DNA of 64,000 bases from an uncultured Gammaproteobacteria bacterium. GTDB taxonomy: Bacteria > Patescibacteriota > Patescibacteriia > SG8-24. Numbering within the stretch: the stretch's first letter is position 1; each line of letters starts with the position of its first letter. Both the position numbers and the translations under genes were made by a program. This document shows positions 8,217-61,630 of the stretch, in pieces. The DNA lies in NCBI GenBank assembly GCA_964491475.1, contig CAZBFO010000002.1, positions 16,501 through 80,500 of the forward strand, written 5' to 3'. Below the pieces are notes generated by a model. That model did not search any database. It was not told where the DNA came from and saw only the letters and a program-made list of their open reading frames with translations.

Positions 8217-11200
8217 ATGGCCAAATTTCACCTTCCGACAATCGAAGAGGAGCAACTCGCCAAATGGGACGAACGCAAGGTCCTGAAGCAGGTTTTTGAG
8301 CGCAGCAAGGACGGCTCGCGAAAGCCGTTCGTCTTTTTTGAAGGTCCGCCGACCGCCAACGGCAAGCCGGGCATTCACCACCTGCTCGCCCGATCCTTCA
8401 AGGACGTGCTGTTGCGGTTCAAGACCATGCAGGGCTATCGCATCGACCGCAAAGCCGGCTGGGACACGCACGGCCTGCCCGTCGAGTTGGAAGTCGAGAA
8501 GCAGTTGGGTTTCACCAAGAAGCAGGACATCGAGCAGTTCGGCATCTCTGCTTTCAATGCCAAGTGCCGCGAGTCCGTTTGGAAGTACCTGGACCTGTGG
8601 CAGAAGAGCACGCGCCGCGTGGCTTTTTGGGTGGACATGGAAAACCCGTACATCACTTATAAGAACGATTTCGTGGAGTCGCTCTGGTCGATTTTTAAGG
8701 AAATCGACAAGAAACGCCTGCTTTATAAGGGGTATCGCGTGACGCCGCACTGCCCGCGGTGCGTGACTTCGCTGTCTTCGCATGAGTTGGCGCAGGGGTA
8801 TAAGAATACGGAGGATCCGAGCGTGTTTGTGAAATTCCCGGCGGCCGGTCGCAAGAACACTTTCTATCTCGTTTGGACCACCACTCCCTGGACGCTGTCC
8901 GCAAACGTCGCCCTGGCAGTCGGTCCGAAGGTCGTCTACGTCGAGGCAAAGATGAAAGAGACGGGCGAAGTGCTGATTCTCGCCGAAGAACGTCTTTCGG
9001 TCCTAGACGGAGCATTCGACATCGTGAAGAAAGGTTCTTGGGAAAGTGACTTGTTTTCTGGCACGCTGACTGACGATTTCGGTCGTGGTTATGAGCCACT
9101 CTACGGTCAGGCTATGCCCGAAAACGAACAATATAAAAATCACGCCTACAGGATTTACCCTGCCGATTTCGTGTCAACGGGTGACGGTACGGGCATCGTG
9201 CACATCGCGCCAGCCTTCGGTGAAGACGACGCCACTCTTGGCAGGAAAGCCTCGTTGCCCACGCTGCTCACCGTCGACACCACGGGCATGGTGACTTCCG
9301 ACTCGCCGGGCAAGGGAAAATTCTTCAAGAAGGCTGACGAAGAAGTGAAGGCCGACCTCACTGCACGCGGCCTCCTTTACAAGAGCGGCACCATCGTTCA
9401 CTCCTACCCGTTCTGCTGGCGCTGCGACACGCCGGTGCTGTACTACGCCAAGTCTTCGTGGTACGTGCGGATGTCGTCGCTGCGCGATCAGCTCATCGCC
9501 AACAACAACCAGATCAACTGGGTGCCGTCGCACATCAAGGACGGGCGCTTCGGCGAGTGGCTCAAGGACGTGAAGGACTGGGCGATTTCGCGCGAGCGCT
9601 ATTGGGGCACGCCGCTGCCGGTTTGGCAGTGCGAATCGTGCGAAAAGACCCGTGTTATCGGCGGTTTTGACGAGATGGATGCCGCAGCCCCGCTCAAGAA
9701 CAACTACTTTTTGCAGCGTCATGGCGAGGCTTTGTCGAACGTCGGCGAGTACATCAGCAGCATTCCCGAACTCAAACCCGATCCGCTGACGGAAAAGGGC
9801 AGGGAACAAGTCGTAGCCTCGGCCAAACTGCTCAAGGAGAAGAAAATCGATTTGATTTTTGCCTCCGACATTTTACGGACCAAGGAAACGGCGGAGATTA
9901 TCTCCAAGGAGGTCGGCGTGTCGGTGATCTATGACGACCGCCTGCATGAGTTGGCCGTCGGCGCGTTCAACGGGAAGTCGATTGCCGAGTACCACAAGGC
10001 TCACGAAGGCATGGACCGTTTTGAGCAGGCTGCTGAAGGCTGTGAGTCGCACTGGGACGTGCGCCGCCGCATGGTCGCATTCTTCAAAGATATCGATGCC
10101 AAGTACCGTGGAAAGAATATCGTCATAGTCAGCCACGGCGACCCGCTGTGGCTGCTGCAGACCGCCTTCAAGGAGCTCACCAAGCAGGAAGTCCGCGACT
10201 GGCCGCACTACAACCACACCGGCCAGTTCGTGGAGATGACCTCGCCGCGCAACTTACCGTACGACACGCTCGGCATGGTCGACGTGCACCGCCCGTTCAT
10301 CGACGACGTGCAGATCGTTTGCGAGTGCTCCGGGACGATGCGCCGCGTCCCCGACGTCGCCGACGTCTGGTTCGACTCGGGCGCCATGCCCTACGCCCAG
10401 TGGCACTACCCGTTCGAGAACGCCGACCGCATCGACAGCGGCGCGAATTTTCCTGCGGATTACATCTCCGAAGCTATCGACCAGACGCGCGGCTGGTTCT
10501 ACACCCTGCTCGCAGTTTCGACGTTGCTCGGAAAGACCACGCCTCCTTATAAGAACGTCATCTGCCTCGGTCACGTTTTGGACGGCAAGGGAAAGAAGAT
10601 GTCCAAGTCCAAAGGCAACGTCGTCGACCCGTTCGAGGCCATGGACAAGTACGGCGCGGACGTCATCCGCTACTACCTGTTCACCGTGAACCAGCCCGGC
10701 GAAGCCAAGCGCTTCGACGAGAAGGCCGTCGACGAGGTCACCAAGAAGGTGTTCCTCATCCTCTGGAACGTGCTGACGTATTACAAGATGTATGCCGGTG
10801 AGGGCGCGGCTTTCGTTGACAAGGCGCTAGCTTCACCGAAGCACGAGCTGGATGCCTGGATTCTCTCGGAGACCTCGCGTTTGGTCGCTTCGGTGACCGC
10901 GCAGATGGAGGCGTACGACGTGACTGGCGCATGCCGTGAACTCGGCGCTTTCGTGAACGACCTCTCCACTTGGTACGTCCGTCGCAGCCGCGACCGCTTC
11001 AAAGCCGGCGGTGCGGAGGCTGCCGAAGCCGTGGCCACGCTCGGCTACGTGCTCGGCACCTTCGCCAAACTGACCGCCCCGTTCACCCCATTCTTGGCCG
11101 AGTCCCTGTACGCCGAACTCGGCGGCAAGGCTGATTCCGTCCATCTTCTCGACTGGCCGGACGCGGAAGCGGCAAAGGATCGCGCCGCTGCCACCGAAGA

Positions 11201-11693
11201 GCTTCGCAACCAAATGAAGAAGGTGCGCTCCGTCTGCTCGCTCGGTCTTGAGAAGCGCGCGGCCGCGTCCATGCCCGTGCGCCAGGCGCTGGCTTCGGCC
11301 ACCGTGCGCGGCAAGGGCGGCATGACCGACTGGATGAAGGAGATCGTCGCCGACGAACTTAACGTTCACGAGGTGCGCTCCGAGGAATCTTCCGGAGATA
11401 CGACTGTCGAAATCGACACCGTGCTCACCCCCGCGCTCAAGCGCGAGGGCGCCGCGCGCGACCTGGTCCGCAACGTCAACGACCTCCGCAAGACTTCTGG
11501 ACTGACGCTGCAGGACCGCGTGACCATCGTCTACTACACGGCTTCTGACTTCTGGAAGGAAACCGTCGCCGAACACGGTGCCGGCGTAATGGCCGACACT
11601 CTGGCCACCAAGATCGAAGAAGGCCAGCCGTACGAACCGAAATCGCTCTGGTTCGAGGACCACGAGATTCACGTTGCCATTGTGAAGCAGTAA
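8217..11693 (+). CDS. ileS: isoleucine--tRNA ligase with an inserted histidine-phosphatase-like domain
   Basis: Carries the HIGH-like motif (PGIHHLL), KMSKS (KMSKSKGN), the CP1 editing motifs (TTPWT, GTGIVHIAPAFGEDD), and the WQCESCE zinc knuckle. About 190 aa including FLQRHGEA...SHGDPLWLL are inserted before HRPFIDD. Confidence 0.9.
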   Translation: MAKFHLPTIEEEQLAKWDERKVLKQVFERSKDGSRKPFVFFEGPPTANGKPGIHHLLARSFKDVLLRFKTMQGYRIDRKAGWDTHGLPVELEVEKQLGFTKKQDIEQFGISAFNAKCRESVWKYLDLWQKSTRRVAFWVDMENPYITYKNDFVESLWSIFKEIDKKRLLYKGYRVTPHCPRCVTSLSSHELAQGYKNTEDPSVFVKFPAAGRKNTFYLVWTTTPWTLSANVALAVGPKVVYVEAKMKETGEVLILAEERLSVLDGAFDIVKKGSWESDLFSGTLTDDFGRGYEPLYGQAMPENEQYKNHAYRIYPADFVSTGDGTGIVHIAPAFGEDDATLGRKASLPTLLTVDTTGMVTSDSPGKGKFFKKADEEVKADLTARGLLYKSGTIVHSYPFCWRCDTPVLYYAKSSWYVRMSSLRDQLIANNNQINWVPSHIKDGRFGEWLKDVKDWAISRERYWGTPLPVWQCESCEKTRVIGGFDEMDAAAPLKNNYFLQRHGEALSNVGEYISSIPELKPDPLTEKGREQVVASAKLLKEKKIDLIFASDILRTKETAEIISKEVGVSVIYDDRLHELAVGAFNGKSIAEYHKAHEGMDRFEQAAEGCESHWDVRRRMVAFFKDIDAKYRGKNIVIVSHGDPLWLLQTAFKELTKQEVRDWPHYNHTGQFVEMTSPRNLPYDTLGMVDVHRPFIDDVQIVCECSGTMRRVPDVADVWFDSGAMPYAQWHYPFENADRIDSGANFPADYISEAIDQTRGWFYTLLAVSTLLGKTTPPYKNVICLGHVLDGKGKKMSKSKGNVVDPFEAMDKYGADVIRYYLFTVNQPGEAKRFDEKAVDEVTKKVFLILWNVLTYYKMYAGEGAAFVDKALASPKHELDAWILSETSRLVASVTAQMEAYDVTGACRELGAFVNDLSTWYVRRSRDRFKAGGAEAAEAVATLGYVLGTFAKLTAPFTPFLAESLYAELGGKADSVHLLDWPDAEAAKDRAAATEELRNQMKKVRSVCSLGLEKRAAASMPVRQALASATVRGKGGMTDWMKEIVADELNVHEVRSEESSGDTTVEIDTVLTPALKREGAARDLVRNVNDLRKTSGLTLQDRVTIVYYTASDFWKETVAEHGAGVMADTLATKIEEGQPYEPKSLWFEDHEIHVAIVKQ

Positions 11694-11711: not shown

Positions 11712-12257
11712 ATGATCATCACCCTCTCCGGCACGGTCACTTACAGGGATGGGCACTATGCCGTCATCGAGAACCAGGGTTTGGGATACCAGGTGTTCAT
11801 GCCTCCCACCGCTTTGACCACGCTGACCGTCGGCAACCAGGTGAAGGTCTGGATTCACGACAACGTCAAAGAGGACGCGCACGACCTGTACGGTTTTTTG
11901 GCACAAGGCGACTACCGCCTGTTCCTCAAGCTCATCGGCGTTTCCGGCGTGGGTCCGAAGTCCGCGATGAACATGCTGGCGCTCGGTCCGTCCAAGGACA
12001 TCGAGGCCAACATCGAACGTGCAGACGTGGATTGGCTCACGCGCGTGCCAGGCATCGGCAAGAAAACGGCCCAGAAGATCGTCTTGGAACTCAAGGGCAA
12101 GCTGGCGCTGGGCGAAGGCGGGGGAGAGGACGACGTCGTCACCGCCCTCGTCAATCTCGGCTACGATCGCGAATCGGCCCGCGAGGCGCTGGTCGGCGCG
12201 AACGGCGCGACGGTCGAAGACAAGCTGCGCCAGGCCCTGCGCTCCCTCGGAAGGTAA
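11712..12257 (+). CDS. ruvA: Holliday junction branch-migration protein RuvA
   Basis: RuvA domains I-III pattern (..LIGVSGVGPKSAMNML.., C-terminal ..LVNLGY..). Confidence 0.85.
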   Translation: MIITLSGTVTYRDGHYAVIENQGLGYQVFMPPTALTTLTVGNQVKVWIHDNVKEDAHDLYGFLAQGDYRLFLKLIGVSGVGPKSAMNMLALGPSKDIEANIERADVDWLTRVPGIGKKTAQKIVLELKGKLALGEGGGEDDVVTALVNLGYDRESAREALVGANGATVEDKLRQALRSLGR

Positions 12258-12290
12258 GCGCGGCAGACGACCACGCATTCCCGCATTCAG

Positions 12291-13361
12291 ATGCTCACGC
12301 ACGTCACCAGAAACGAGCAGCAATGGGACGCTTTCGTGCAGGCGCACGGGGGCGGCTTTTTGCAATCGTGGGGCTGGTCGCAGTTTCAGGAGGCCATCGG
12401 CAGGCACGCGCTCCGTTTCCGCGTGAACGGCGGTGCCACCGAGCAGGACGCGGGCGACACTTTGGCCCAGTTCGTGCTGATCGAGATGCCGTTGCCGTTC
12501 GGATTTCGTTATGCCTACGTGCCGCGCGGCCCCATTGTGAAGCTGACGGACAGCAGCAAGGCGAACACCGCCAGCGTCGTCAGTTGCATCGAGGCCGTGC
12601 ATCAGAAGGTGGCCCGCGACCGGTTGGCTTTCGCCAAAGTCGAATGGCCGTGGCCGCTCGGTGCAGAAGTGGTCACCCCCAAGGCAGCGGAAAAATGGGG
12701 CTTCAAGTATGCCGGACACGTGCAGCCGCAACACACGGTCATCGCCGACTTGACCAAGTCCGAAGAACAACTCCTTGCCGCCATGCACCAGAAGACGCGC
12801 TACAACATCCGCGTGGCGGAAAAGCACGGCGTGACTTTCCGCGAGGCGCTGCGTGACGACGCTCACCTCTTTGAGCACGACGTCGAAGTCTTTTGGGGCA
12901 TGCTCGACGAGACCGCCAGCCGTGACAAGTTCAGCACGCATGAGCGCAAGTACTACCGCACCATGCTCGACGTGCTTTCGCCCAAGAAGAGCGAGGGTTT
13001 GCGCACGCGGATGTTCTTCGCCGAATACCAGGGTCGGGCCGTCGCAGCGGCGATGACCGGCGAGTTCGGCGACACCGTCACCTACTTGCATGGCGCTTCC
13101 GTGGCCGGCGATCGCAAGGTGATGGCCCCGTACCTGCTGCATTGGCACATCATGAAAGACGCCAAGGCGCGCGGTTTCGCCAAGTACGATTTTTGGGGAG
13201 TCGCCCCGTCTGACGATGCGGAGCATCCGTGGGCAGGCATCACTCGTTTCAAGACCGGTTTCGGCGGCGACCGCGTCGAATACTTGGGGGCGTGGGAGTT
13301 GCCGGGCAACCGCCTTTGGTATACCCTCTACCGGTACGCAAAACGGCTGCGGCGGCTGTAG
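12291..13361 (+). CDS. FemAB-family peptidoglycan branch aminoacyltransferase (FemX-like)
   Basis: FemAB family pattern (N-terminal ..FLQSWGWSQF.., C-terminal ..YDFWGV..). Confidence 0.65.
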   Translation: MLTHVTRNEQQWDAFVQAHGGGFLQSWGWSQFQEAIGRHALRFRVNGGATEQDAGDTLAQFVLIEMPLPFGFRYAYVPRGPIVKLTDSSKANTASVVSCIEAVHQKVARDRLAFAKVEWPWPLGAEVVTPKAAEKWGFKYAGHVQPQHTVIADLTKSEEQLLAAMHQKTRYNIRVAEKHGVTFREALRDDAHLFEHDVEVFWGMLDETASRDKFSTHERKYYRTMLDVLSPKKSEGLRTRMFFAEYQGRAVAAAMTGEFGDTVTYLHGASVAGDRKVMAPYLLHWHIMKDAKARGFAKYDFWGVAPSDDAEHPWAGITRFKTGFGGDRVEYLGAWELPGNRLWYTLYRYAKRLRRL

Positions 13362-13376
13362 GCCGCAGCGGCGCGA

Positions 13377-13451
13377 GCACCCGTAGTTCAACGGATAGAA
13401 CGCGAGCCTCCGAAGCCTGAGATCCAAGTTCGATTCTTGGCGGGTGCACCA
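13377..13451 (+). tRNA. tRNA-Arg (anticodon CCG)
   Basis: Manual cloverleaf. Acceptor GCACCCG/CGGGTGC, U8A9, D-stem GTTC/GAAC, anticodon loop CTCCGAA, T-arm CCAAG-TTCGATT-CTTGG, discriminator A and encoded CCA. There is one A-C mismatch in the anticodon stem. Confidence 0.75.
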
Positions 13452-29340: not shown

Positions 29341-29370
29341 CCACCGAGTCCCGGAAACGGGACCGTAATG

Positions 29371-29862
29371 GTTTGCCAGACGATCGCTCCGCCTTAAAAA
29401 GCGGGGAGGAAAGTCCGAACACCCTTACCGCGCGCAAGCGCGGCAAGAAGCGGATAGCTGCTAACGGCAGCCGGGAGTAAGGACATCGAACGTTCCCTCG
29501 GGTACCGAAAGGTGACGAGAAAGCGGTTGATGACCCCAAGTCCAGGGAAAGTGCAACAGAGAATACACCGCCCAGCCGTCGCAAGACGGAGGGTAAGGCT
29601 GAAATCGTGGGAGGCCGGAGCAACGGCCCGACCCCTCGCCCCGAAAGAGGCGAACGGGAGCAAGAGCCCACGCGGCATGCCTCGAGAGAGGTACCGTGGA
29701 AAACCCTATCCGGTGCAAGAGCAAATTTGGTAGCTCGCTATTTCTACCGCTGGCCGCCCGAAAGGACGGTTACGTAGAGACGAAGCTCGCGCGCAAGCGC
29801 GGCTCAAGAGAGATGATCGTCCCGCCGCAAGGCGCGACAAAATTCGGCTTATCGGCAAACCA
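29371..29862 (+). ncRNA. rnpB: RNase P RNA (bacterial type A-like)
   Basis: P4 strands GGAGGAAAGTCCG and ACAAAATTCGGCTTATCGG. Also GTGCAACAGAGAA and GGGTAAGGCTGAAA conserved blocks. P1 formed by GTTTGCC/GGCAAAC. Confidence 0.8.
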
Positions 29863-29893
29863 AAAAACCCTTCTCGCAAGAGAGGGGTTTTAC
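29862..29893. terminator. bidirectional terminator shared by rnpB and the convergent CDS
   Basis: A-tract, then CCCTTCTC-GCAA-GAGAGGGG, then TTTT. Confidence 0.55.
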
Positions 29894-61554: not shown

Positions 61555-61630
61555 TGGTCGGCCCGCTGGGACTCGAACCCAGAACCGCCGAGATATAAGC
61601 TCGGTGCACTAACCATTGTGCTACGGGCCG
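61555..61630 (-). tRNA. tRNA-Ile (anticodon UAU)
   Basis: Manual fold. Acceptor CGGCCCG/CGGGCCG, U8A9, D-arm GCAC-AATGGTTA-GTGC, anticodon stem CCGAG/CTCGG with loop CUUAUAU (U33, anticodon UAU, A37), T-arm CTGGG-TTCGAGT-CCCAG, discriminator A, CCA encoded. Confidence 0.7.

What the first reader, a model, noticed from the sequence alone, without database searches (positions are those of the whole stretch)
9700..10290. Isoleucyl-tRNA synthetase with a complete histidine-phosphatase (PGAM/SixA-like) domain inserted in its core
- Seen directly: about 190 aa lie between the conserved zinc knuckle (..[25 protein letters not shown]..) and the conserved ..[33 protein letters not shown].. block.
- Seen directly: the inserted residues open with FLQRHGEALSN, contain ..LTEKGREQ.. 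and ..IFASDILRTKETAEII.., and close with ..IVIVSHGDPLWLL.
- Established knowledge: RHG...H with a second SHG histidine is the catalytic signature of branch-1 histidine phosphatases, which are the phosphoglycerate mutase, SixA and CobC families.
- Established knowledge: canonical IleRS has only a short linker at this position.
- Seen directly: the rest of IleS is intact (HIGH-like, KMSKS, CP1 editing motifs), so this is a domain insertion and not a gene fusion artefact or frameshift.
- From memory: I am not aware of an aaRS carrying an HP-superfamily domain.
- Inference: candidate functions are a phosphatase acting on a phospho-tRNA or nucleotide (for example 2',3'-cyclic or 3'-phosphate end healing), or a regulatory moonlighting module.
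Basis: partly seen in the sequence, partly recalled or inferred. Interest (0 to 1): 0.6.

Follow-up and report, generated by a model that had tools for sequence, protein, structure and literature searches.

The report
Phosphatase domain nested inside isoleucyl-tRNA synthetase
An essential translation enzyme (isoleucyl-tRNA synthetase) of a tiny-genome Patescibacteria bacterium carries a complete, apparently active phosphatase inside its catalytic core; this architecture is real, common in that group, seemingly undescribed, and derives from a phosphatase gene that otherwise sits right next to the synthetase gene.

Summary
Window 8217..11693 (+) encodes a 1158-aa type-2 IleRS. A 189-aa branch-1 histidine phosphatase (HP) domain (Pfam His_Phos_1, E 7e-34) is inserted between the CxxC and CxC halves of the CP3 zinc knuckle.

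All HP catalytic residues (R501, H502, R554, E578, H640) are present and 95-100% conserved in 116 homologues. AlphaFold models the whole protein confidently (pLDDT 93, pTM 0.86).

It is not an assembly artefact. At least 64 clusters at 50% identity, all from Patescibacteria-type assemblies, share the architecture. Databases name them only generically, and I found no paper describing it.

New finding: in relatives whose IleRS lacks the insert, an orthologous ~190-aa HP gene lies immediately upstream of ileS (10 of 10 checked) in a conserved smpB-argS-HP-ileS-recO cluster. Nested genomes keep the cluster but have no free HP. One lineage fuses HP to ArgRS. Some IleRSs carry 2-4 HP copies. One sister clade lost the insert.

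The substrate is unknown. The acidic pI and PhoE/PspA/GpgP-like neighbours favour a small-molecule phosphomonoesterase co-produced with class-I synthetases. I rate it a new variant of a known kind, with moderate-to-high interest.

The parts
8217..11693 (+). ileS: type-2 isoleucyl-tRNA synthetase with a nested histidine-phosphatase domain (1158 aa plus TAA stop)
   Evidence: ORF and start codon. TIGR00392 scores 856 bits, above its 621 cutoff. The best PDB matches are IleRS2 8c8w/8c8v and 1ile. An identical protein is in NCBI on a 386-kb contig (P0121).
8370..8381 (+). Class-I signature motif in its non-canonical GXHH form (G52-I-H-H55)
   Evidence: Sequence. P51, G52, H54 and H55 are invariant in alignment A1. 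GXHH in IleRS2 confers mupirocin hyper-resistance (PMC10485003).
8799..9416 (+). CP1 editing domain (about aa 195-400), with TTTPWT (8877-8894) and DGTGIVH...D, flanked by the first zinc site C179/C182 and C400/C403
   Evidence: PDB matches to isolated IleRS editing domains 1wk8/1ue0 cover query 194-398. These residues are invariant in A1. Motifs read directly.
9570..9608 (+). CP2-CP3 linker VKDWAISRERYWG (aa 452-464). Its yeast equivalent lines the tRNA CCA / reveromycin pocket.
   Evidence: Sequence. Homology to ScIleRS 453-ARDWNVSRNRYWG-465 as described in PMC7955072.
9630..9641 (+). First half of the CP3 zinc knuckle (C472-E-S-C475)
   Evidence: Conserved in at least 80-95% of nested homologues. 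Tt IleRS CP3 carries a zinc motif (PMC7191050).
9648..10274 (+). Inserted segment (aa 478-686): two short linkers plus the histidine-phosphatase domain. The Pfam His_Phos_1 core is aa 498-672, nt 9708-10232.
   Evidence: AF2 insert model has pLDDT 94.6. Foldseek gives TM about 0.8 to GpgP, PhoE and PspA.
9717..9725 (+). R501-H502-G503: phosphate-binding Arg and the nucleophilic His (the predicted phospho-enzyme site)
   Evidence: Aligned to PhoE R9-H10. 100% conserved in 116 nested homologues and in stand-alone homologues.
9876..9878 (+). R554, the second phosphate-pocket arginine
   Evidence: 100% conserved.
9948..9950 (+). E578, the predicted general acid/base
   Evidence: Aligned to the PhoE 'RLREI' glutamate. 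95% conserved.
10134..10136 (+). H640 (SHGDPLW motif), the second catalytic histidine
   Evidence: 100% conserved.
10320..10328 (+). Second half of the CP3 zinc knuckle (C702-E-C704)
   Evidence: At least 90-95% conserved.
10596..10610 (+). KMSKS loop (aa 794-798)
   Evidence: K794, M795, S796 and K797 are invariant in A1.
10851..11687 (+). Anticodon-binding domain (Pfam Anticodon_1, aa 879-1023) and the type-2 C-terminal domain (DUF5915, aa 1059-1157)

Best explanation
Shown:
- Window 8217..11693 encodes a bifunctional protein. It is a normal-looking type-2 (GXHH) IleRS.
- Its variable CP3 subdomain, specifically the loop of its zinc knuckle, hosts a complete branch-1 histidine phosphatase. 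The phosphatase is predicted to be rigidly packed.
- This architecture is vertically inherited and widespread in Patescibacteria.
- The nested domain is the orthologue of a free ~190-aa gene. In other Patescibacteria that gene lies directly upstream of ileS, often overlapping its start, in a conserved smpB-argS-HP-ileS-recO cluster.
- The same module has also been fused to the ArgRS C-terminus, duplicated to 2-4 copies inside IleRS, and lost once.

Inferred mechanism:
- The IleRS part activates, transfers and edits as usual.
- The HP part hydrolyses a phosphomonoester through a phospho-His502 intermediate. R501, R554 and H640 hold the phosphate, and E578 acts as acid/base.

Most likely role (about 50%): a PhoE/PspA/GpgP-like small-molecule phosphatase. 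Its link to the synthetases would be obligatory co-expression and stoichiometry, and possibly complex formation, rather than chemistry on tRNA. CP3 would simply be a permissive harbour next to where the gene already lay.
For: - Domain identity and completeness: Pfam, NCBIfam and PDB searches; AF2 insert model plus Foldseek, TM about 0.8 to GpgP, PhoE, PspA and CobC.
- Catalytic residues are 95-100% conserved in 116 nested homologues and in stand-alone homologues. All copies in multi-HP proteins keep them.
- Full-length AF2 model: pLDDT 93, pTM 0.86, with linkers above 90. The IleRS body superposes on IleRS2 structures.
- Spread.
- Operon: 10 of 10 stand-alone HPs are directly upstream of an insert-less class-I synthetase gene. 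Nine are full-length ileS and one is a cut fragment.
- Nested genomes keep argS-ileS-recO with no free HP in between.
- ArgRS-HP fusion was found in two independent assemblies.
- HP and IleRS distances co-vary: r = 0.75 for nested pairs and 0.70 for stand-alone pairs. Nested-to-free HP distances are not inflated.
- Small-molecule leaning: HP pI is about 5.9, like PhoE and PspA, and the nearest structures are all metabolite phosphatases.
- Permissive site: an unrelated DUF559 domain occupies the same CP3 site in a Saprospiraceae IleRS. CP3 is structurally variable among IleRSs (PMC7191050).
- Dispensability for IleRS: a sister clade cleanly lost the insert, with 93% bootstrap for the grouping, and has no HP next door.
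Against: - No substrate or activity has been measured.
- The repeated physical joining to class-Ia synthetases could equally mean a real functional partnership with aminoacylation or tRNA. The joining takes several forms: overlapping operon genes, the nested form, a second insertion site before the anticodon-binding domain, and the ArgRS fusion.
- The insertion lies about 15 residues after the CP2-CP3 linker that lines the tRNA CCA pocket (PMC7955072).
- I could not obtain model coordinates, so the position of the HP active site relative to the tRNA path is untested.
- The deep nodes of the NJ trees are weak (below 50% bootstrap). The direction of the gene-to-insert transition and the number of events are therefore unresolved.
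Confidence: 0.5

Rival explanations
1. tRNA/RNA-end healing. The HP removes a 3'-phosphate or opens/removes a 2',3'-cyclic phosphate on damaged tRNA ends, so that the synthetase it rides on can charge them.
For: - The HP is persistently associated with tRNA-handling enzymes, through the argS-HP-ileS operon, the nested form and the ArgRS fusion.
- The insertion sits in CP3, just after the linker that lines the CCA pocket.
- The cluster also holds smpB and glyS-like genes.
- HP-RNA enzyme fusions exist elsewhere. The NCBIfam model for the bifunctional RNase H/acid phosphatase is among the insert's hits, though below its cutoff.
Against: - The domain is acidic (median pI 5.9).
- No nucleic-acid-binding family or structure appears among its neighbours.
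- Multiple tandem copies and clean loss in a sister clade are hard to reconcile with a cis-acting repair step.
- No histidine-phosphatase tRNA-end phosphatase is known to me (from memory).
Confidence: 0.17
2. Protein phosphatase guarding class-I synthetases. The HP reverses inhibitory phosphorylation of IleRS/ArgRS, for example by HipA/HipT-type toxin kinases. Those kinases are known to target class-I synthetases GltX and TrpS (from memory). Alternatively it acts on another phosphoprotein.
For: - Some branch-1 HPs are protein phosphatases, such as SixA, Sts-1 and PGAM5 (established knowledge).
- The cap region between E578 and E610 is short, about 30 aa.
- The HP is associated with two class-I synthetases.
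Against: - The SixA model scores 26 bits against a cutoff of 74.5.
- The nearest sequence and structure neighbours are metabolite phosphatases.
- No kinase gene was seen in the conserved cluster.
Confidence: 0.08
3. Hidden glycolytic enzyme. The HP is a divergent cofactor-dependent phosphoglycerate mutase. It would supply the PGM step reported as missing in several shallow Parcubacteria clades, and would be invisible to gene-level annotation because it sits inside ileS.
For: - The best NCBIfam hit of the insert is archaeal-type dPGM NF038349 (E 6e-28).
- Jaffe et al. [quoted passage not shown]
- No other HP occurs in the 64-kb window.
Against: - NF038349 scores 98 bits against a cutoff of 225. 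All eight bacterial dPGM models are far below their cutoffs.
- The motif after the second His is SHGDPLW, not the dPGM HGNSLR. E578 is followed by L-A-V, not the dPGM R-H-Y (read from the sequence; the dPGM motifs are from memory).
- PDB dPGM matches cover only the N-terminal half, with E-values of about 1e-4 to 1e-5.
Confidence: 0.1
4. Neutral or selfish passenger. The HP is an inactive or function-less insertion tolerated in a permissive loop, or the locus is a chimeric misassembly.
For: - CP3 tolerates unrelated inserts, such as DUF559 in Saprospiraceae.
- The insert can be lost.
Against: - Catalytic residues are 95-100% conserved across sequences that are only about 44% identical in the domain.
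- The architecture was recovered in well over 100 independent assemblies from NCBI, JGI, ENA and Logan.
- There is no GC break, there are no flanking repeats, and no intein or Hint family is detected.
Confidence: 0.04

Closest known systems
Type-2 isoleucyl-tRNA synthetase (IleRS2), e.g. Priestia megaterium IleRS2 (PDB 8C8U/8C8V/8C8W) and Thermus thermophilus IleRS (1ILE)
   Same: - Same overall domain order, and the fold superposes (TM 0.77-0.83 normalised on the target). HMMER scores are about 800 bits.
- Both zinc sites, the CP1 editing motifs, KMSKS and the type-2 C-terminus (DUF5915) are present.
- It carries the GXHH signature variant that was engineered and studied in 8C8W.
   Different: - The roughly 20-aa loop of the CP3 zinc knuckle is replaced by about 210 aa containing a whole enzyme domain.
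- No solved IleRS has this.
- A 2026 survey preprint of 96,219 IleRS sequences does not mention a phosphatase in its main text.
Small branch-1 histidine phosphatases: PhoE/YhfR of Geobacillus stearothermophilus (1H2E/1EBB), phosphoserine phosphatase PspA (4IJ5), glucosyl-3-phosphoglycerate phosphatase Rv2419c (4PZ9), CobC
   Same: - Same fold (TM about 0.8, rmsd 2.1-2.5 Å) and similar size of about 190-210 aa.
- RHG...R...E...H catalytic set.
- Acidic pI.
   Different: - Only 21-28% identical.
- Below every curated family cutoff.
- It has its own SHGDPLW signature.
- It is embedded in, or encoded next to, a class-I synthetase instead of being a free metabolic enzyme.
IleRS with an N-acetyltransferase domain (NCBIfam NF040702, ileS_w_GNAT), and bifunctional RNase H/acid phosphatase (NCBIfam NF005567, Rv2228c type)
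   Same: These are precedents for (a) an IleRS carrying an extra enzyme domain and (b) a branch-1 HP fused to a nucleic-acid enzyme. Both models appear among the hits.
   Different: - The window protein is not a member of either. It scores 286 bits against a cutoff of 1999, and 71.5 against 326.
- The accessory domain, and presumably its position, differ. I did not examine where the GNAT domain sits.
Stand-alone HP gene of the Patescibacteria argS-HP-ileS operon (e.g. Minisyncoccus archaeiphilus PMX.108, locus L014 6010..6597)
   Same: - 37-50% identical to the insert, with the same signature motifs.
- Same neighbours: argS, ileS and recO.
- It co-diverges with IleRS.
   Different: It is a separate 186-209-aa polypeptide translated just before IleRS, not a nested domain.

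Membership tests
Isoleucyl-tRNA synthetase (TIGR00392 equivalog) | Whole-protein score above the curated cutoff | tested here: met
   856.1 bits against a cutoff of 621.4, in two stretches split by the insert.
Isoleucyl-tRNA synthetase | Class-I signature motifs (HIGH-type and KMSKS) and the CP1 editing motifs | tested here: met
   GIHH (the GXHH variant) at aa 52-55, KMSKS at 794-798, TTTPWT at 221-226, and DGTGIVH..D at 323-338. All are invariant in 87 homologues.
IleRS type 2 (IleRS2) | Type-2 C-terminal organisation, and closest relatives that are IleRS2 | tested here: met
   DUF5915 at the C-terminus. Top PDB hits are PmIleRS2 and TtIleRS, while IleRS1 hits are much weaker.
Plasmid-type mupirocin-resistance IleRS MupA/MupB (NF000257/NF000258) | Score above the exception-model cutoff | tested here: not met
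   732 and 740 bits against a cutoff of 1900.
Histidine phosphatase superfamily, branch 1 (PF00300) | Pfam gathering score, and nearly full model coverage | tested here: met
   117.6 bits against a cutoff of 21.7, covering model positions 2-179 of 194.
Histidine phosphatase superfamily, branch 1 | Catalytic core: the RHG His nucleophile, two Arg, a second His and an acid/base Glu | tested here: met
   R501, H502, R554, E578 and H640 align to the PhoE catalytic residues. They are 95-100% conserved.
Histidine phosphatase superfamily, branch 1 | The alpha/beta fold | tested here: met
   AF2 pLDDT 94.6. Foldseek probability 1.00 and TM about 0.8 to GpgP, PhoE, PspA and CobC.
Histidine phosphatase superfamily, branch 1 | Phosphatase activity via a phospho-histidine intermediate | not testable with these tools
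   This needs an enzyme assay with an H502A control.
Cofactor-dependent phosphoglycerate mutase (dPGM) | Score above the curated cutoff of any dPGM equivalog | tested here: not met
   NF038349 scores 98 against a cutoff of 225. PRK03482 scores 64 against 261. TIGR01258 scores 33 against 82. The others are lower.
SixA phosphohistidine phosphatase (TIGR00249) | Score above the cutoff | tested here: not met
   26 bits against a cutoff of 74.5, covering the N-terminal 70 residues only.
CobC alpha-ribazole phosphatase (TIGR03162) / PspA phosphoserine phosphatase (NF045917) | Score above the cutoff | tested here: not met
   78 bits against a cutoff of 162.9, and 64 against 350.
Intein (protein-splicing insertion) | Hint/intein domain and splice-junction residues | tested here: not met
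   No Hint, intein or LAGLIDADG family appears in the Pfam scan. The junctions (...APLKNNYF / ...GMVDVHRPF) lack a Cys/Ser/Thr N-junction and an HN-Cys/Ser/Thr C-junction (read).
IleRS with GNAT domain (NF040702) | Score above the cutoff | tested here: not met
   286 bits against a cutoff of 1999.

The most novel reading that the evidence does not exclude
The histidine phosphatase is a dedicated partner of class-Ia synthetases in Patescibacteria, a previously unknown translation-maintenance activity. It might remove blocking phosphates from tRNA 3' ends, or reverse inhibitory phosphorylation of the synthetases. Evolution would have kept it physically coupled to IleRS/ArgRS by three routes: an overlapping operon gene, a nested CP3 domain, and a C-terminal fusion.
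Probability: 0.25. Interest if true: 0.8.

Novelty: new variant of a known kind. Interest (0 to 1): 0.6.

Why it matters
- Aminoacyl-tRNA synthetases are among the most conserved enzymes. Extra catalytic domains inside their core are rare, and each known one (the editing domains, for example) revealed new biology.
- Here an apparently active phosphatase is tied to IleRS, and sometimes to ArgRS, across a huge uncultured bacterial radiation, and it is invisible in current annotation.
- If the link is functional, it points to an unrecognised step in tRNA or synthetase upkeep in minimal-genome symbionts.
- If the link is only co-expression, it is still a clean natural example of a neighbouring gene relocating into a loop of an essential enzyme. 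It would also be a source of 'missing' metabolic activities hidden inside housekeeping genes, which is relevant to metabolic reconstructions of Patescibacteria.
- A cultured carrier of the operon form (Minisyncoccus archaeiphilus) makes this testable.
- It also marks IleRS CP3 as an engineerable insertion site.

Tried and rejected
- **Source contig.** The exact window protein is not in the encoding-contig index, so I could not examine the source assembly or the rest of the genome.
- **Genome scan.** The GTDB genome scan with a single protein was dominated by IleRS flank patterns. It still gave 11 nested and 4 operon-type genomes, but it is not a census.
- **Literature.** Five searches for IleRS or tRNA synthetase combined with histidine phosphatase, phosphoglycerate mutase or Patescibacteria found nothing on this architecture. 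A Patescibacteria host-defence preprint that mentioned a tRNA synthetase was irrelevant.
- **ArgRS fusions.** A search for more ArgRS-HP fusions found none among the top 120 hits, so that fusion is rare.
- **Spurious hit.** P0296 (4303 aa, 21 'stretches') is a spurious fn3-repeat match.
- **Rejected explanations.** I rejected an intein (junction residues), mobile-element insertion with target duplications, recent horizontal insertion (no GC break) and misassembly.
- **Trees.** NJ trees with 100 bootstraps could not resolve whether the nested or the adjacent form is ancestral.
Full report
**1. What is in the window**

The mechanical ORF 7989..11693 contains the real gene 8217..11693 (+), 1158 aa. 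Its N-terminus MAKFHLPTIEEE matches the consensus of homologues.

- Pfam finds tRNA-synt_1 split in two. His_Phos_1 (aa 498-672, E 7e-34) sits between the halves, followed by Anticodon_1 and DUF5915.
- NCBIfam places the protein in TIGR00392 ileS (856 bits, cutoff 621). It also shows it is type-2-like.
- Against P. megaterium IleRS2 (8c8w), query residues 477-687 replace chain residues 464-485, a net insertion of about 189 aa. An alignment with insert-less relatives shows the exact junctions.
- The insertion lies between C472-x-x-C475 and C702-x-C704, the two halves of a zinc knuckle.
- Published IleRS structures call this region CP3. They describe it as structurally variable, and as zinc-binding in T. 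thermophilus (PMC7191050).
- CP3 follows the CP2-CP3 linker (window VKDWAISRERYWG, aa 452-464). The yeast equivalent of that linker lines the tRNA CCA / reveromycin A pocket (PMC7955072).

**2. Is the insert a real, competent histidine phosphatase?**

- On its own the insert scores E 1.8e-35 against His_Phos_1. It matches PhoE (1h2e/1ebb, E 2e-14), PspA and GpgP in the PDB.
- R501, H502, R554, E578 and H640 align to the PhoE catalytic residues.
- In 116 insert-bearing homologues the domain averages only 44% identity to the window, against 57% for the IleRS body. Even so, R501, H502, R554 and H640 are 100% conserved and E578 is 95% conserved.
- AlphaFold2 models the excised domain at pLDDT 94.6. 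Foldseek returns GpgP, PhoE, PspA, TIGAR, dPGMs and CobC with TM about 0.8.
- The full-length model has pLDDT 93 and pTM 0.86, with the linkers above 90. This suggests a fixed packing against the IleRS body, which itself superposes on IleRS2 structures.
- All curated subfamily models (dPGM, SixA, CobC, PspA, GpmB) score far below their cutoffs. The domain is therefore a distinct small-HP subfamily, not PGAM or SixA proper.

**3. Not an artefact, and not rare**

- A search with the full protein found the identical sequence in NCBI on a 386-kb contig. Of the best 120 clusters at 90% identity, 116 carry an insert of 201-220 aa at the same site.
- Source names are Parcubacteria, Uhrbacteria, Nealsonbacteria, Campbellbacteria, Paceibacterota or 'Patescibacteria group'. 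The product names are generic: 'class I tRNA ligase family protein' and sometimes 'histidine phosphatase family protein, partial'.
- An exhaustive HMMER scan of 1.84 billion representatives at 50% identity with the insert alone was classified. The best 150 comprise 64 proteins with IleRS on both sides, 26 IleRS fragments, 57 stand-alone proteins of 116-260 aa, one ArgRS fusion and two others, of which one is spurious.
- There is no GC discontinuity, there are no flanking repeats and no intein family is detected.
- Searches of the held literature found no description. A 2026 preprint that annotated domain architectures for 96,219 IleRS sequences does not mention a phosphatase.

**4. The decisive context: the same phosphatase is an operon neighbour elsewhere**

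- Four GTDB genomes have an insert-less IleRS, among them the cultured Minisyncoccus archaeiphilus PMX.108. In each, a 191-198-aa HP gene (37-41% identical to the insert) lies immediately upstream of ileS and overlaps its start by 4-11 nt.
- Six further stand-alone homologues were looked up by exact sequence. All lie directly upstream of an insert-less class-I synthetase gene. Five of those genes are full-length ileS, and one is cut after 84 aa but is tRNA-synt_1. That makes 10 of 10.
- The wider neighbourhood is conserved: smpB / (AA_kinase) / argS / 0-2 small ORFs / HP / ileS / small ORF / recO ... glyS-like.
- Genomes with the nested form keep smpB-argS-ileS::HP-recO but have no free HP. 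In L087, argS ends 4 nt before ileS starts. Ten of 13 nested loci have argS just upstream.
- HP and IleRS pairwise distances co-vary: r = 0.75 for nested pairs and 0.70 for stand-alone pairs. Nested-versus-free HP distances are no larger than IleRS divergence predicts. So the nested domain and the neighbouring gene are orthologues that changed position in situ.
- In one lineage, recovered in two independent assemblies, ileS has left the cluster and the HP is fused to the ArgRS C-terminus by loss of the argS stop. This fusion is rare.
- Other IleRSs carry two to at least four HP domains. These occur in tandem in CP3, or at a second site just before the anticodon-binding domain. Every copy keeps RH[G/A]...R...E...H.
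- In a bootstrapped NJ tree the window belongs to a clade of 60 nested sequences (90%). Its sister is four insert-less IleRSs (93%). Two of these, looked up by exact sequence, show the window's own synteny (rpiB, and in one also rpe, upstream of ileS) and have no adjacent HP. This indicates a clean secondary loss.
- Deep nodes are weak, so the direction of the gene-to-insert transition is unresolved.

**5. How it most likely works**

Shown: the protein has every sequence and fold feature of an active IleRS2 and of an active branch-1 histidine phosphatase.

Inferred: it is bifunctional. The HP hydrolyses a phosphomonoester through phospho-His502.

For the substrate, the evidence points in two directions.
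- *Towards a small-molecule phosphatase whose tie to the synthetases is co-expression or stoichiometry:*
  - the domain is acidic (median pI 5.9, like PhoE and PspA);
  - all near neighbours are metabolite phosphatases;
  - it is not specific to IleRS;
  - it can be multiplied or lost;
  - CP3 also accepts an unrelated DUF559 domain in a Saprospiraceae IleRS.
- *Towards a genuine partnership with aminoacylation:*
  - the operon is persistent and translationally coupled;
  - the HP has been joined to class-Ia synthetases in at least three independent ways;
  - the packing is predicted to be rigid;
  - the insertion is next to the CCA-pocket linker.

The rest divides as about 17% on tRNA-end healing, about 8% on a protein phosphatase, about 10% on a divergent PGM, and about 4% on a neutral or inactive insert. 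The PGM idea is prompted by the report that PGM is missing in several shallow Parcubacteria clades (PMC7304191), but the dPGM models fail.

**6. Comparison with what is known, and novelty**

- The host is a member of IleRS2, and the guest is a member of PF00300. Both memberships were tested and met.
- The guest is not a member of the dPGM, SixA, CobC or PspA equivalogs. The protein is not MupA/MupB and not the GNAT-bearing IleRS family.
- Precedents exist for accessory enzyme domains in synthetases, and for HP fusions to nucleic-acid enzymes.
- In the solved structures and the held literature I found no precedent for a histidine phosphatase nested in the catalytic core of a synthetase, or for its alternation with an operon-neighbour form.
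- I therefore rate it a new variant of a known kind. It is already abundant in sequence databases, but it is unnamed and, as far as I could find, undescribed.

**7. Verdict**

The interest is moderate to high (0.6). The main added value is the operon / nested / fusion series, which turns a curiosity into a testable functional association, with a cultured organism available for experiments.

Noticed in passing
window 8370-8381: The class-I signature motif of this IleRS is GIHH, the non-canonical GXHH form shown to give IleRS2 mupirocin hyper-resistance (PMC10485003). P51, G52, H54 and H55 are invariant in all 87 aligned Patescibacteria homologues, so the whole clade is predicted to be hyper-resistant.
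   Followed up: partly
L016 6100-6750 (Saprospiraceae MAG JBGAJY010000117.1): A Bacteroidota IleRS carries an unrelated DUF559 (Vsr/restriction-endonuclease-like) domain (Pfam E 7e-34) at the same CP3 position. This marks CP3 as a recurrent permissive insertion site.
   Followed up: partly
P0298, P0309, P0363, P0241, P0350, P0358 (proteins): These IleRS variants have 2 to at least 4 catalytically intact histidine-phosphatase domains. They occur in tandem in CP3, or at a second site just before the anticodon-binding domain (P0298 aa 861-1054, P0363 aa 887-1031).
   Followed up: partly
L091/L092 5001-7070 (P0276): An ArgRS with the same phosphatase fused to its C-terminus by loss of the argS stop codon. 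Here ileS has left the smpB-argS-recO cluster. It was seen in two independent assemblies (ENA and JGI), and no further examples appeared among the top 120 hits.
   Followed up: yes
window 61555-61630 (-): A tRNA-Ile gene with anticodon UAU. This is the uncommon way of reading AUA without lysidine modification of a CAU tRNA. I did not check whether the genome lacks tilS, or whether this relates to the unusual IleRS.
   Followed up: no
window 29368-29867 (+): The bacterial class-A RNase P RNA match spans 500 nt for a 367-position model (118 bits, just above the gathering score of 100). This implies about 130 nt of insertions.
   Followed up: no
P0427; P0017, P0024, P0030 (database names): Annotation noise caused by this architecture. 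A 194-aa free phosphatase is named 'isoleucyl-tRNA synthetase' by JGI. Fragments of nested IleRS are named 'histidine phosphatase family protein'. Full-length proteins get only 'class I tRNA ligase family protein'.
   Followed up: no
L001 488-1369 (+): A 294-aa ORF matching the HP profile lies about 3 kb upstream of a nested ileS::HP in a Candidatus Azambacteria MAG. It may be an extra paralogue, and it is the only nested locus where a second HP was seen nearby.
   Followed up: no
window 6493-8121 and 11712-13451: In the window the ancestral argS-ileS-recO neighbourhood is broken. Upstream of ileS are rpe (6493-7179, -), rpiB (7193-7678, -) and a pilin-like ORF with an N-methylation motif (7720-8121, +). 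Downstream are ruvA, a FemAB-family gene and tRNA-Arg(CCG). The insert-less sister clade shows the upstream part of this arrangement: rpiB upstream of ileS in both loci looked up, and rpe as well in one.
   Followed up: partly
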